From: Octopus sinensis
Lineage: Eukaryota
Length of the DNA stretch: 9,040 nt
Assembly (NCBI RefSeq): GCF_006345805.1
Contig: NW_021828251.1
Coordinates: 1 to 9,040, forward strand
Direction of reading: 5' to 3'
This document shows, one piece after another, positions 1,857 through 8,396 of the stretch. The position numbers were made by a program, and so were the translations under genes. Every line of letters begins with the position of its first letter. The stretch's first letter is position 1. The notes below the pieces were generated by a model. The model worked only from the letters and a program-made list of their open reading frames with translations. It ran no database searches and was not told the DNA's origin.

Positions 1857-2494
1857 GGTGGACAAAACGGTTAAACCGTATGGCATATAACCAGCCAATG
1901 TAAGCCAATAGCCCACAATGAATATAAGAGACGCTACGACAATATAGCCAGGCTTGTCCATTGGACACTTTACAACAAGTATAGTCTTGACAGAGCAAAA
2001 AATTGGTACGACCACAAACCTGAAGTCATCGTCGAAAACAGAAATGCAAAGAGCCTATGGGATTTTATGATTCAATGGGACCATGAGATTGAAAATACGA
2101 AGCCGCACATATTCCTAATTGAGAAAGAAAACAAACTATGCTGGATCATAGATATAGCATGCCCAGCTGACAACAAGGTATGCGATAAGGAAGAAAGAAA
2201 AGTCGAGAGATATGAGAGGTTAGCTTGGGAATTTAAGCAGTTGTGGTCGATGAAAAAAGGTGGTAGTAGTACCAATAATTGCTGGAGCCCTGGGAATAGT
2301 GAGTAAAAATCTCGAGAAGTACGTGGAACAAATAGGAGGTGCAATAAGGGTGGAGCTCTTGCAGAAAACAGCACTGCTTGGAACCGCTCGAATACTCCGG
2401 AAGGTGCTCGAAAAATAAGAGGTGTTACCTTAGTTTACTGGTAGTGACAGCTGACACCGTAGTACATCTCGAGCGTTAGAAGCTGTGCAAAGGC
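1857..2494 (+). mobile_element. 5'-truncated R4/Dong-like non-LTR retrotransposon, copy 1 (degenerate CCHC zinc knuckle, restriction-like endonuclease and 3' UTR)
   Basis: Translation from 1857: GGQNG*TVWHITSQCKPIAHNEYKRRYDNIARLVHWTLYNKY...WYDHKPEVIVENRNAKSLWDFMIQWDHEIENTKPHIFLIEKENKLCWIIDIACPADNKVCDKEERKVERYERLAWEFKQLWSMKK. After a +1 frameshift in the A-run at 2253-2258 it continues VVVVPIIAGALGIVSKNLEKYVEQIGGAIRVELLQKTALLGTARILRKVLEK* (stop 2416-2418). These are decayed versions of the CxxC...H...C, RHD, RPD...D, KxxKY and GALG motifs of RLE non-LTR elements. A 76-nt 3' UTR follows, then (AAT)n, the known target type of Dong elements. Confidence 0.92.
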
Positions 2495-2558
<64 letters not shown>

Positions 2559-2565
2559 TAATAAT
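2495..2565. repeat. (AAT)n microsatellite; tail/target between the two RLE retrotransposons
   Basis: 21 perfect AAT units at 2495-2557 plus a short imperfect extension. Confidence 0.97.
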
Positions 2566-2710
2566 AGCATGCCCCGGTAGCAACAGGATGAATGTGAAAG
2601 AAGAAGACAAAATAAACAACAATGACGATTTAAAGTGGGAAATACGGAAGTTGTGGTCAATGAGGAGAGTAGATGTGATACCAATAGTAATTGGTGCACT
2701 TGGAAATATC
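2564..2710 (+). mobile_element. 5'-truncated R4/Dong-like retrotransposon, copy 2, left part (a different family from copy 1)
   Basis: IACPGSNRMNVKEEDKINNNDDLKWEIRKLWSMRRVDVIPIVIGALG aligns without gaps to copy 1 (24/47 identical). Homology stops abruptly at 2710 and resumes at 6119. Confidence 0.9.
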
Positions 2711-3344
2711 CAAAGGGCCCGGGAACAGGGGGTGCAGCGGGTGCACCTGCACCCCTTTGAATTTTCAGGTGGTGCAAGATCAAAATAGTGTCTAAAAAAT
2801 TATCTGTATAAGATGCTTGAAGCTAGATTTCGTTTCAAAGCAAAAACAAAGAACTAAAATAAATAAATAAAAGTGATGAAGCTGGGCTTAAAATTCCCAA
2901 GGGAATTTATGACTAACCAACTTCTGAAGCAAAGTAGCGTCAAAATAAAAAGTATGTGACAACAACAACAGTAGCAGCAAACAACAAGAACAACAACATG
3001 ACCAGCATCTAAGGCTACTCTTCAATACATAGCATTACTTGGATTCTTGAAGGCAGCTCGACAAAAATAACTCCAAAATTTTGCAATGCTGAAAATGTGT
3101 GAAGGTTCTCTTGTCTTCTCTCAGTCTGTCTCTCAAGTTCTTTGTAGTTGATGTCGCTAAAGACTGACGACATGGTTGAATGGATTCGACTGTTTGACCT
3201 CAGCCTAAAAATAAAAGCCCATTAAAAATTCTTTCAGTCATATCGGTTTTCTCATTTAGGTTGTTAGGTCTAAAGTTTGACAAGGGAACAAAATGATTTA
3301 TTTTTATCTTTGATATTTTATGCTCATTATTCGAAATACTAGTC

Positions 3345-3470
3345 CAGTTTAATAAAAAAAGATTTTGAAAGGAAACATTTAACTATAAATGATTGCAGAC
3401 CAACCCCGAAATTACCTAATTTGCAAAGAAATGTACTTGACAATTTCAGACTAATTTATCTAAAAAGGAA
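3345..3470 (+). pseudogene. Possible N-terminal relic of a hAT-Tip100/ZMYM1-like transposase (region leading into the TTF zinc finger)
   Basis: 3361-3426 reads DFERKHLTINDCRPTPKLPNLQ. A shifted frame at 3429-3470 reads KCT*QFQTNLSKKE. This resembles, from recall, the F-E-x-K...GRPTP-x-L...R-x-F pattern that precedes the TTF finger. The match is short and frameshifted. Confidence 0.5.
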
Positions 3471-3484
3471 ATGATATTGAAAGC

Positions 3485-3820
3485 ATTACCTACCGTCATC
3501 CTGACGCGGTTAACCACGAAGATCACTTCAGGGGTGCTTTTTTTACTCACAAGTCTAACCCTAGCTGAGGCCAGCACACAGGCTAATATGCTTTTAACAG
3601 AGGTCTTTAATTTTACTAATCTTAGCTGGTCCGAGGATTATATCCAGCCTGGAACCAAGCAACTGGTGTGGAGGGATATGAACGCTTTCCTCAATACAAC
3701 AAAAGACTTTCCCATACAACAAATTATTACCTGTCCAATTAGGGGAAAATAGCATACTCGACTTTGTTTTTATTCACAATGTTCATGTCATTCCCACAGC
3801 TATTTCCAACCAAAAGCGTA
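3485..3820 (+). mobile_element. Decayed apurinic-like endonuclease (APE) fragment of a CR1-group LINE ORF2
   Basis: ITYRHPDA (3485-3508; cf. YRPP); MLLTEVFNFTNLSW (cf. GDFNxPxIxW); FLNTTKDFPIQQIITCPIRG, frameshift, NSILDFVFIHN (cf. QxVxxPTRGxxILDLVFTN); PTAISNQ (cf. SDH). Motif order and spacing fit, but catalytic residues are lost. Confidence 0.8.
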
Positions 3821-3849
3821 ATACAATTATCTGTATATGGTACAAAGAA

Positions 3850-4830
3850 ATATCCGACTCGCAGCATGGATTTCTATCCTGAAGATCTTGCCTAACAAAT
3901 CTTCTCCTTCTTGAAGAATGGATTACAAGGACCATGGATGAAAAATACTTGCTGGACGTGGTATTTTTGGACTTTGCAAAGGCATTTGACTCCGTTAATC
4001 ACTGACTTCTCACGCGCAAACTTCGAGCATTCAAGATTCATCCATTGTTGACTTTGTGTATTTCTTCCTTCCTGAGCTATCGAACCTTTTGGGTGCAGAT
4101 AAATGGAGATCTCTCAGCGGAGACGAATGCATGCAGCGGCGTTCCCCAGGGGTCGGTGCTGGGGCCAATATTTTTCCTTCTCTATATCAACGACCTGTCA
4201 GATTTTCTTGATGGAAGAGTTCTCCTATTTGCAGACGACGTCAAACTTGTCTCATCTAGGGATCAATACGACATACTCCAATTATCGCTGAACCGAGCTT
4301 GGAATTGGGCGGAAGAATGGAATCTGAACTTGAACGCCTCAAAATGCACCCATTTGCCCATAGGTTCACCTCCAAACTCTCCCTTGACTATTGGCCACAA
4401 ACATCAACATCTTAAGATGGTCACTGAAGAAAAGGATCTCAGCATAATGATCGATACTACTTTCAAACTACCACGGCAGGGTATCGAGGCGGCGAACAAA
4501 GCCAGAAGGAATCTTTTCTTCATCCACCGATCCTTTGCTAACCTTTCAATGGACGTCTTTTGGCATGTATATGTCACTCTAGTTCGACCCATCCTCGAAT
4601 ATTACATCCATACCTCAAACCCATATCTCCAGAAAGACATTCAGCACCTGGAATGGGTTCAGCACTTGGCCACCCGAATGGGCGCGGGCTTGTCTAAGCT
4701 TGCGTAAGAGGAACATCTCCGACGGCTGGCATTGCCTTCACTCAAACGACGGAGGATGCAGGGAGATCTCATCCGACTTTCAACATCTTCAACGGACATG
4801 TAAGCCTACCATTTGCGAAGATTTTCACCC
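3850..4830 (+). mobile_element. CR1-group LINE reverse transcriptase relic (includes ORF 4045-4707)
   Basis: One frame from 3850: ISDSQHGFLS*RSCLTNLL...DVVFLDFAKAFDSVNH*LL...SGVPQGSVLGPIFFLLYINDL...LLFADDVKL...LNASKC...EKDLSIMID...YVTLVRPILEY...LEWVQHLATRM...LA*EEHLRRLALPSLKRRRMQGDLI. Stops at 3880, 4003 and 4705. Homology is cut off at about 4830 by the minisatellite; there is no 3' UTR or tail. Confidence 0.95.
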
Positions 4831-5456
4831 GAGGTTTTCTAAATTCCGGAAAGTTTGGTCGAAAATTTCCTGGAAAGTTTGATCGAAAACCTCCTGGAAA
4901 GTTCCGAGAATTCTCTAAATTCAGGAAAGTTTGGTCGAAAACCTCCCGGAAAGTTCCGAGGATGTTCTAAATTCCGGAAAGTTTGGTCGAAAACGTCAAG
5001 TATAGTTCCAAGGTTTTCTAAATTCCGGAAAGTTTGGTCGAAAACTCCCTGGAAAGTTCTGAGGAGTTTCTAACTCCCGGAAAGTTTGGTCGATTTTTTT
5101 GGAAAGTTCAAAGGATTTTGTAACTCCGGAAAGTTTGGTCGAAAACCTCCTGGAAAGTTCCTAGGATTTTCTAAATTCAGGAATGTTTGGTCGAAAACTT
5201 CCTGGAAAGTTCCGAGGATTTTATAACTCCCGGATAGTTTGGTCGAAAACTCATGGAAAGTTCCGGGGATTGTTTAAATTCCGTAAAGTTTGGTCGAAAA
5301 CCTCTTGGAAAGTTCCTAGGATTTTGTAACTCCCGGAAGGTTTGGCCGAAAACTTCATGGAAACTTCCGAGGATTTCGTAACTCACGGAAAGTTTGGTTG
5401 AAAACTTCCTGGAAACGTCCGAGGATTTTGTAACTCCCGGAAAGTTTGGTCGAAAA
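4829..5456. repeat. 52-bp minisatellite, about 12 units; consensus approx. CCGAGGATTTT(C/G)TAA(A/C)T(T/C)CCGGAAAGTTTGGTCGAAAAC(C/T)TCCTGGAAAGTT
   Basis: The core GGAAAGTTTGGTCGAAAA, with variants, starts at 4848, 4872, 4924, 4976, 5027, 5079, 5128, 5180, 5232, 5283, 5335, 5387 and 5439. Spacing is mostly 51-52, with one 49 and one 24-bp half-unit duplication. Confidence 0.97.
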
Positions 5457-5488
5457 TATACTTCACATTATTATATATACTATTCATT

Positions 5489-5994
5489 AATGCAAAAATT
5501 ATTGTGTTTATTGGCTATCTTCAAAATGATCACACCATCAATGGAAAATTTTAATATCAACTTCCTAAGGCAGTTATGAAAGGCTATCAAGACCAAACAC
5601 CCAGAAAAACGGATGACTGGGGTCTTGTTTCATTATGACAATGCTTCAGCACACAAGTCCTTGGTTTCAATGGCTGCTGTATGTGACTGGTTTTGAACTG
5701 GTTGATCATGCTCTCTATGTTAGTGGTTTGGTTCCTTCTGGTTATCATCTGTTTCCCAACATAGAAAAATACTCAGCTGAGCACCTGTATCACTATGATG
5801 AGAACATCTTATCCGTTGTTGATGACCATTTTGATCAACAGAAAATCTTCTTTACCAGTGCGACCCAAGCACTGCAACTACTAATGGAAGTGTGTGGACA
5901 GTAAGAGGAACTATGTCAGAAAGTGAACTTCATTTGGTCACATTCCATTCAGAGTGTCTTGCTCAGATTATGAACATTTCAGCCGACCCTCATA
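5489..5994 (+). mobile_element. 3' half of a decayed mariner (Tc1/mariner, DD34D-type) transposon with its right TIR
   Basis: Across frameshifts: NAKIIVFIGYLQNDHTING...LRQL*KAIKTKHPEKRMTGVLFHYDNASAHKSLVSMAAVCD/GFELVDHALYVSGLVPSGYHLFPNIEK...KCVDSKRNYVRK* (stop 5924-5926). Compare the mariner motifs HxDNAxxH, HPPYSPDLAPSDYxLF and GxYVE. The element ends ...TTTCAGCCGACCCTCA-TA (5993-5994), like the ...CCCTCG-TA terminus of many mariners. No 5' half or left TIR is visible. Confidence 0.92.
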
Positions 5995-6118
5995 ATAATA
6001 AAAATTATTATACCTGCATTTGTTTTAATGTTAACATTGGAAAAATCCACATTTTTCATTAAAACAAATTAGGACCTGGGTTTGCACCCCCTTAGCAAAT
6101 TTTGTTGCTGGGCCACTG

Positions 6119-6336
6119 GAAGTATCAGCACTCAACTACCAACATGGCTGAATATGATCGGTGCAAGTGTGAAGGAGGAACATCTTCAGAAATCAGCATT
6201 GTTTTGGAACTTGCAAGAATTCTTCGCAGGGGTCTTGAAGCATAACCGGTAAAGCAAGTGACACATTAGTCTGCTGGCTGTGGAAAGCTGACACTTTCCT
6301 TCATACCCAGCAAAATAAGCTGTGATTTTTCATCAC

Positions 6337-6337
<1 letters not shown>
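6119..6337 (+). mobile_element. R4/Dong-like copy 2, right part (ORF end and 3' UTR)
   Basis: SISTQLPTWLNMIGASVKEEHLQKSAL, then small indels, then GT/ARILRRGLEA* (stop 6243-6245). This is collinear with the end of copy 1 (LQKTALLGTARILRKVLEK*). The 3' UTR shares TTAGT, CTGG, AGCTGACAC and AAGCTGTG blocks with copy 1 and is followed by (TAA)n. Confidence 0.92.
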
Positions 6338-6373
<36 letters not shown>

Positions 6374-6437
6374 TAATTAATAATAATAATAATAATAATA
6401 ATTGATAATAATAACAATAATAATAATAATAATAATA

Positions 6438-6471
<34 letters not shown>
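6338..6471. repeat. (TAA)n microsatellite, tail/target of copy 2
   Basis: Direct reading; a few interruptions. Confidence 0.97.
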
Positions 6472-8028: not shown

Positions 8029-8325
8029 GACCAATATCCTTAAGAATGGTCTCTAATTTAGACACAAACCCAGAAGTGTTGTTGTATCTCGGGAGGGTCA
8101 TTATACCAGTAGTAATCACACCCTCCGGTTCTATTTCACTTCTTAATTTCATAAGTGCTTAACCATTATTAATGCTGGTATTTAACTGGTGATACTTGCA
8201 AATGCACCAATTACTATTGCTATCACTCCCGCTCCCTTCCACCACTTTCGTATTTCCCACTTTAAATCTTCATACTTGCTTACTTCTACTTTTTTCACAT
8301 TGATCCTGTTGCTACCGGAGCATGC

Positions 8326-8396
<71 letters not shown>

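What the first reader, a model, noticed from the sequence alone, without database searches (positions are those of the whole stretch)
2703..6126. 3.4-kb hAT-like element whose interior is a same-strand mosaic of other elements' fragments: candidate Pack-type cargo transposon
Seen: the boundaries are fixed by an 8-bp TSD and by in-frame rejoining of the interrupted retrotransposon. Inside, about 2.5 kb consists of an APE fragment, an RT fragment, a 52-bp array and half a mariner, all coding relics on the + strand. None is a complete insertion: the CR1 lacks both ends and a tail, the mariner lacks its left half and TIR, and I found no internal TSDs. The mariner and APE relics look heavily decayed, while the TSD is still 7/8 intact. 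Known: plant Pack-MULE/Pack-CACTA and some Ds elements acquire fragments by template switching during gap repair; this is less documented for animal hATs. Inference: the cargo may have been captured before this insertion and moved as one unit. Alternative: later nested insertions followed by deletions.
Basis: partly seen in the sequence, partly recalled or inferred. Interest (0 to 1): 0.72.

Follow-up and report, generated by a model that had tools for sequence, protein, structure and literature searches.

The report
Snowballing transposon carrying dead transposons
This is a shortened copy of a cut-and-paste transposon family, present at over a hundred sites in this animal genome, that lost its own enzyme and carries pieces of dead transposons as one package; older relatives show that several pieces were picked up one at a time, likely before the family's last burst, as already described in a lizard.

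Summary
Real, and it moved as a unit, but it is not a single Pack-type capture. Window 2711-6118 is an internally deleted member of a non-autonomous hAT family. Its right end occurs 129 times in the genome; 22 of 25 two-ended copies have their own 8-bp target duplication; all segments are 2.1-3.9% from the family consensus; the stop codons in the cargo are shared. Longer copies (about 10 kb plus array, pieced together) carry three LINE relics, SINEs, filler DNA and the array. Older relatives give the history. A transposase-bearing hAT received a complete mariner with a TA duplication (empty site found). The transposase was then lost, apart from a relic at window 3356-3473, and LINEs and SINEs were added (empty sites for two SINEs). 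The 'APE' and 'RT' pieces come from two different LINEs. Only the RT piece and a CT-rich filler could be template-switch captures; no donor locus and no host-gene fragment was found. Anolis hobo_AC elements are a published precedent. The scan's earlier notes did not show this family. New member of a known kind; interest modest.

The parts
2561..2702 (+). Host non-LTR retrotransposon 3' fragment, part before the insertion (restriction-like endonuclease type, R4/Dong-like; label recalled)
   Evidence: Frame rejoins with 6127 onward; no Pfam or PDB hit for the sister copy
2703..2710 (.). Left target-site duplication GAAATATC (one change from the host form)
   Evidence: host paralogues carry the right-hand form (loose ends)
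2711..2726 (+). Left TIR (one extra A relative to other copies)
2711..3355 (+). hAT 5' end and subterminal region; first ~165 bp shared with a 270-bp cargo-free MITE
   Evidence: Aligns to MITE and at 73-80% to old transposase-bearing copies L266, L296, L298
3356..3473 (+). Relic of the hAT transposase N-terminus (residues ~24-65 of a related 713-aa protein)
   Evidence: tblastn E 4e-6 in a small database; protein is DUF4371 + Dimer_Tnp_hAT; same stretch leads into a whole broken transposase in L266
3480..3847 (+). LINE b, 5' piece (end of APE domain)
   Evidence: Continues into the rest of LINE b in older copy L267
3848..4829 (+). LINE a (CR1-like, label recalled) RT fragment; replaces ~380 bp of LINE b in the master; no tail, no TSD
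   Evidence: Pfam RVT_1; absent from L267; free copies continue into a 3' end
4830..5456 (.). 52-bp minisatellite array, about 12 units here, up to ~72 units in other copies; both junctions are deletions unique to this copy
5453..5992 (+). Right half of a mariner with right TIR (about 5965-5992); 5453-5488 is a degraded lead-in
   Evidence: Whole mariner with both TIRs in L266, L296-L299; PF01359
5993..5994 (.). TA duplication of the mariner insertion
   Evidence: Empty site in L300
5995..6118 (+). hAT 3' end; right TIR 6104-6118; last ~75 bp shared with the MITE
6119..6126 (.). Right target-site duplication GAAGTATC
6127..6471 (+). Rest of the host retrotransposon: end of ORF, 3' UTR and (TAA)n tail

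Best explanation
The element is an internally deleted copy of a multi-copy, non-autonomous hAT family whose cargo of dead transposon pieces moved with it as one unit, was likely gathered step by step in successive master copies, and was likely moved by a transposase supplied from elsewhere in the genome. Shown: (1) a transposase-bearing ancestor type exists with and without a complete mariner in its 3' region; (2) sister families keep the same ends with fewer passengers (270-bp MITE; end plus CT-rich filler; plus LINE b; plus LINE c and mariner without the SINE); (3) the young family amplified to over a hundred sites at about 3% divergence with 8-bp duplications; (4) deletion derivatives amplified again. 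Inferred: the order of the middle steps; recombination between sister lineages to join the LINE-b left arm to the mariner right arm; cut-and-paste with gap repair as the source of copy gain and of microhomology deletions; template-switch capture for the LINE-a piece and the filler. The window copy lost about two thirds of the master through two deletions ending in the array. It is most likely neutral.
For: Junction recurrence: 40 of 40 scored hits span the mariner/hAT junction at 94-100%; 40 hits for the transposase/LINE junction; of 40 right ends picked on the last 24 bp only, 30 have the direct mariner junction, 3 an interrupted one, 2 an older version, 5 none. TSD at least 7/8 in 22 of 25 two-ended loci, 22 different 8-mers, 0 of 600 cross pairs. 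Median divergence 2.1-3.9% in all 12 segments; RT stops in 24 of 26 and 22 of 23 rows, mariner stops in 63 of 66 and 63 of 67 rows. Free LINE-a copies differ by 7.5-12.4%, free LINE-c copies by roughly 13-21%. Old transposase-bearing copies with the whole mariner: L266, L296-L299; empty TA site in L300. Tree of the mariner piece: 18 young rows and 5 old rows each form one side of a 100/99 branch, 3 intermediate rows between. SINE empty sites. Shared deletions: one array/LINE-c junction in 15 loci by eye, one RT deletion in 4 loci.
Against: No single complete master was recovered; the ~10 kb structure is pieced from overlapping copies, longest two-ended copy 8794 bp. No empty site or TSD was shown for LINE b or LINE c; LINE a has no tail or TSD and replaces ~380 bp, which fits capture as well as insertion plus deletion. 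The cognate intact transposase was not found: the nearest intact family has different TIRs, is about 80% identical and younger. 3 of 25 two-ended loci lack a matching TSD (one is explained by a nested end). The array's origin is unexplained; 7 of 16 array loci show no family arm within about 1.5 kb. Most fetched loci were chosen by best match, so counts other than one search are biased toward the family.
Confidence: 0.85

Rival explanations
1. One Pack-type capture: a hAT copied a ready-made stretch of genomic DNA, already full of old transposon relics, during gap repair, and then amplified (the reading given for Anolis hobo_AC).
For: The interior looks like ordinary intergenic DNA with microsatellites and filler; LINE a lacks tail and TSD; CT-rich filler is not in the old transposase-bearing copies. 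It may be true for those pieces.
Against: The mariner sits complete, with TA duplication, in transposase-bearing copies and has an empty site; SINE empty sites exist within the lineage; sister families carry subsets of the cargo at 70-90% identity; no donor among 18 fetched of 40 filler hits.
Confidence: 0.1
2. Two separate small hAT ends flanking a genomic segment were mobilised together as a composite.
For: This did happen once in the lineage: four loci carry a young right end inside an older sister element, and one has a 7/8 TSD at the outer ends. A 270-bp MITE with similar ends exists.
Against: The left arm runs without a break from TIR into the transposase start, and the right arm from mariner into the end, as in whole ancestral elements; no inner TIR was seen in the assembled arms.
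Confidence: 0.03
3. An ordinary hAT inserted here and was later filled by nested insertions and trimmed by deletions at this locus, or the copies are segmental duplications.
For: The two array junctions of the window copy are unique among the fetched copies; a few loci share flanks.
Against: Cargo junctions and stop codons are shared across chromosomes with different TSDs and flanks.
Confidence: 0.01

Closest known systems
Anolis carolinensis hobo_AC and hobo-N1 to N15 (PMC3014272; hAT section read in full, other passages by term search)
   Same: Animal hAT with 8-bp TSD carrying fragments of CR1, SINE and another DNA transposon superfamily; 9-15 kb autonomous and 1.3-3.4 kb non-autonomous forms; deletions and inter-element recombination make new families.
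   Different: The authors infer capture of genomic DNA for hobo_AC; here empty sites show true nested insertion for the mariner and two SINEs. Here the amplified form is non-autonomous and about 10 kb, with a long internal minisatellite. The transposase is of the DUF4371 type; its hAT clade was not tested.
Pack-TIR of animals, including Pack-hAT-N8_XT (PMC8277862; passages read)
   Same: Multi-copy, distinct TSDs, foreign DNA between TIR ends.
   Different: Pack-TIRs were defined by an internal sequence with a unique parental copy at 90% identity or more and median size 224 bp; only 4 of 281 were multi-copy. Here cargo is kilobases of transposon relics and no parent was found.
Maize Ds2 and Ds-l4 (PMC3260210; abstract and outline only)
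   Same: Non-autonomous hAT ends with unrelated filler inside.
   Different: Plant; filler occasionally from genes; shorter.
Plant Pack-MULE / Pack-CACTA (recalled; Pack-MULE also in passages of PMC6431247 and PMC8277862)
   Same: Cargo moved between TIRs by a transposase in trans.
   Different: Defined by captured host gene fragments, mostly 1-2 kb elements; none detected here.

Membership tests
hAT superfamily, non-autonomous | 8-bp target-site duplication | tested here: met
   22 of 25 two-ended loci at 7/8 or 8/8; 0 of 600 cross pairs
hAT superfamily, non-autonomous | Short TIRs starting with YARNG (as stated in PMC3014272) | tested here: met
   Family ends CAAGG and CAGTG, about 11 of 15 complementary; window has one extra base
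hAT superfamily, non-autonomous | Descent from an element encoding a hAT transposase | tested here: met
   Relic at 3356-3473; L266 and L296-L303 hold broken transposases with the same ends or arms; related intact protein is DUF4371 + PF05699
hAT superfamily, non-autonomous | Cognate intact transposase present in the genome | tested here: inconclusive
   Nearest intact family has other TIRs and about 80% DNA identity; searches score only the best 40-150 candidates
Pack-TIR / Pack-type | Several copies with distinct TSDs and the same cargo | tested here: met
Pack-TIR / Pack-type | Unique parental copy of the internal sequence outside the element | tested here: inconclusive
   None among 18 fetched of 40 filler hits, nor among 30 fetched of 41 LINE-c hits; not a whole-genome exclusion
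Pack-TIR / Pack-type | Cargo is host (non-transposon) or gene sequence | tested here: not met
   Window cargo is all transposon-derived or array; 80 open frames of 55 aa or more from three long copies gave only RVT_1 and one hit below its cut-off; the filler of longer copies is unassigned
Pack-TIR / Pack-type | Acquisition by template switching, not by insertion | tested here: not met
   Not met for the mariner and two SINEs; open for LINE a and the filler
Tc1/mariner (passenger) | TIRs, TA duplication, DDE transposase | tested here: met
   In older relatives; only the right TIR and TA remain in the window
CR1 clade (LINE passengers) | RT phylogeny placing them in CR1 | not tested
   RT confirmed; clade label recalled from motifs
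R4/Dong clade (host) | RT phylogeny and restriction-like endonuclease | not tested
   Motif reading recalled; no Pfam or PDB hit; passages of PMC3774820 place Dong in the R4 lineage next to TAA repeats

The most novel reading that the evidence does not exclude
A long-lived hAT lineage works as a conveyor: each dead passenger is re-amplified with it, some pieces are copied in by template switching, and it bred and spread its own 52-bp minisatellite to about a hundred loci, where the array acts as a deletion hotspot that keeps generating new master elements and leaves solo arrays behind.
Probability: 0.25. Interest if true: 0.5.

Novelty: new member of a known kind. Interest (0 to 1): 0.3.

Why it matters
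It is a well-layered record of how a cut-and-paste element turns into a carrier: ancestor, empty sites, intermediates and the final burst are all in one genome, which lets insertion be told from capture piece by piece. It also warns that copy counts and ages of LINE, SINE and mariner relics are inflated by hitch-hiking: over a hundred mariner halves here come from one insertion event. It shows that a roughly 10-kb non-autonomous hAT can still amplify. No host function is indicated.

Tried and rejected
Cognate autonomous partner: 30 loci from a PF05699 search and 9 extended loci were compared with the family ends; none carried them. Array origin: local alignment of two units to the arms, the old element and the intact hAT gave only low scores, so an origin from transposase or LINE sequence is not supported. 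The array has 5 TTC-N3-GAA words against 0.18 in shuffles, but tandem repetition explains this; the resemblance to a STAT site is recalled and untested. Same-strand cargo: three foreign coding pieces on the hAT strand is 1 in 8 by chance, and a SINE in longer copies lies on the other strand; rejected as a signal. Empty orthologous allele: three raw-read runs laid no read at all, so no test; joints across the element come from the high-copy host family. One run labelled as another organism had no cover at 3452-3703, a weak hint only. Host protein: no PDB hit; Atlas look-up unavailable. Papers: searches for octopus hAT non-autonomous elements (4 listed, listings only), for hAT with internal minisatellite in molluscs (none) and for nested hitch-hiking (none) did not show this family; repeat libraries such as Repbase or Dfam were not available, and no supplements were read, so it may be catalogued there. 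Sequence look-up in earlier scan notes found nothing.

Full report
Observation. The insertion runs from 2711 to 6118 between GAAATATC and GAAGTATC; joining the flanks restores the reading frame of the interrupted retrotransposon end. The RT relic is Pfam RVT_1, the array has period 52 with 11.4 copies, and the mariner half ends in a TIR and TA. The window is a whole 9-kb contig of a 2.72-Gb genome. Earlier scan notes call this genome an octopus; I did not test that.

It moved as one unit. A query across the mariner/hAT junction gave 40 of 40 scored hits, nearly full length, at 94-100%, on many contigs. A query across the left junction gave 40 hits at 89-100%. The last 24 bases occur 129 times with at most one mismatch, the control 0 times; the first 24 bases 153 times with at most two, a count that includes sister families. 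To avoid selecting on the cargo, 40 right ends were taken from the pattern list alone: 30 had the direct mariner junction, 3 an interrupted one, 2 (one locus twice) an older version at 84-85%, and 5 lost homology within 46-133 bp. Of 25 loci with both ends in view, window included, 22 have a TSD of 7/8 or 8/8, all different; 0 of 600 cross pairs do (left offsets of up to 2 bases allowed). Lengths run from 833 to 8794 bp. Median divergence from the family consensus is 2.1-3.9% in each of 12 segments, ends and cargo alike (15-78 rows per segment, eight duplicate or overlapping fetches dropped; the consensus was built from part of the same copies). The cargo was dead before the burst: two RT stops are in 24 of 26 and 22 of 23 rows, two mariner stops in 63 of 66 and 63 of 67. 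Free copies of the passengers are further away: LINE a 7.5-12.4% in 4 copies, LINE c mostly 79-87% identical.

The window copy is a deletion derivative. Longer copies hold, in order: hAT left arm, LINE b start, LINE a RT, the rest of LINE b with SINEs and microsatellites, the array, SINEs, LINE c from endonuclease to tail, a CT-rich filler, a reversed SINE, the mariner half and the right end. The sum is about 10 kb plus an array of up to about 72 units. No single copy shows all of it. Both array junctions of the window are unique among the fetched copies and show 2-4 bases of microhomology. Other deletions were amplified again: one array/LINE-c junction, with a 7-of-8 microhomology, is in 15 loci by eye (two of them share flanks), and one RT deletion is in 4 loci, two with different perfect TSDs.

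History from relatives. The consensus stretch matching window 3356-3473 is similar to residues 24-65 of a 713-aa hAT transposase of a young intact family (E 4e-6 in a small database; DUF4371 and PF05699). A pattern from that stretch led to L266, a decayed whole element with the same left arm (78-80%), a broken full transposase, a complete mariner and the same right end. Four more old copies carry the whole mariner (L296-L299) and L300 has the empty TA site. In a tree of the mariner piece the 18 young rows and the 5 old rows each lie on one side of a 100/99 branch, with 3 intermediates between; the root is only the midpoint. Other sisters: a 270-bp MITE with TSDs in 10 of 17 fetched loci; a family with left arm plus CT-rich filler only (7 of 18 loci); L267 with LINE b but without LINE a, without the tRNA-like SINE and without the array; copies with LINE c and mariner but without the reversed SINE. 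In L267 the 'APE' piece runs on into LINE b, so LINE a replaced about 380 bp of LINE b and has neither tail nor TSD. Four loci carry a young right end inside an older sister, and one of them has a 7/8 TSD at the outer ends.

Mechanism. Shown: nested insertion into earlier copies for the mariner and two SINEs; amplification of the loaded element; re-amplification of deletion forms. Inferred: a transposase in trans that needs only the ends; gap repair as the source of deletions; recombination between sister lineages; template switching as a possible route for LINE a and the filler. The cognate transposase was not found: the nearest intact family has different TIRs, about 80% identity and copies 97-99% alike. 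The origin of the array is open: of 16 other array loci, 7 have family arms within about 1.5 kb, 2 have a small piece or an arm 4 kb away, 7 show none.

Comparison. Anolis hobo_AC elements of 9-15 kb and their non-autonomous derivatives carry CR1, SINE and Chapaev fragments and diversify by deletion and recombination (PMC3014272, hAT section read). Pack-TIRs require a unique parental copy, and only 4 of 281 were multi-copy (PMC8277862, passages). Here no parent was found and 80 open frames from three long copies gave no host-gene family above cut-off. It works like a Pack element in carrying cargo but fails the host-cargo and capture criteria where tested.

Verdict. A real, multi-copy, cargo-laden non-autonomous hAT; new member of a known kind. 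The value lies in the completeness of the record, not in a new mechanism. Interest 0.3.

Noticed in passing
window 1875-2566 (+) and about 8100-8330 (-): Two more 3' fragments of the same host retrotransposon: one directly upstream ending in a (TAA)n tail, one inverted with a single uninterrupted copy of the target 8-mer at about 8191-8198.
   Followed up: partly
L120-L136 (G000, several contigs): Cargo-free 270-bp hAT MITE sharing the ends of the family, 2.6-6.0% from its consensus, 8-bp TSDs.
   Followed up: yes
L250-L258: Young 3.8-kb hAT family, copies 94-99% alike, several with an open 713-aa transposase frame; possibly recently active.
   Followed up: partly
L052, L106, L108, L119 with L291-L294: hAT inside hAT: young right end at one shared site within an older sister element, present at four loci.
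   Followed up: partly
G000:C4:46042270-46062362 (L040, L213, L214): Family ends about 20 kb apart, mostly filled by a different 13-bp satellite; flanks are TG repeats, so the TSD is not informative.
   Followed up: partly
L063:2375-5149: A 2.8-kb insertion with long terminal repeats and a 4-bp duplication inside one family copy.
   Followed up: no
L059, L072, L021, L259, L262: Copies with internal inversions, several ending at or near the array.
   Followed up: no
L143, L146, L147, L151, L154, L155, L167: 52-bp arrays with no family arm within about 1.5 kb; remnants or a separate carrier.
   Followed up: partly
92 right-end flanks: Target preference close to NNYRYRNN, which fits insertion into TA and CA repeats.
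   Followed up: partly
L070, L202, L260, L087: The array changes unit along its length (about 73-75, 52, then 26 bp towards LINE c).
   Followed up: no
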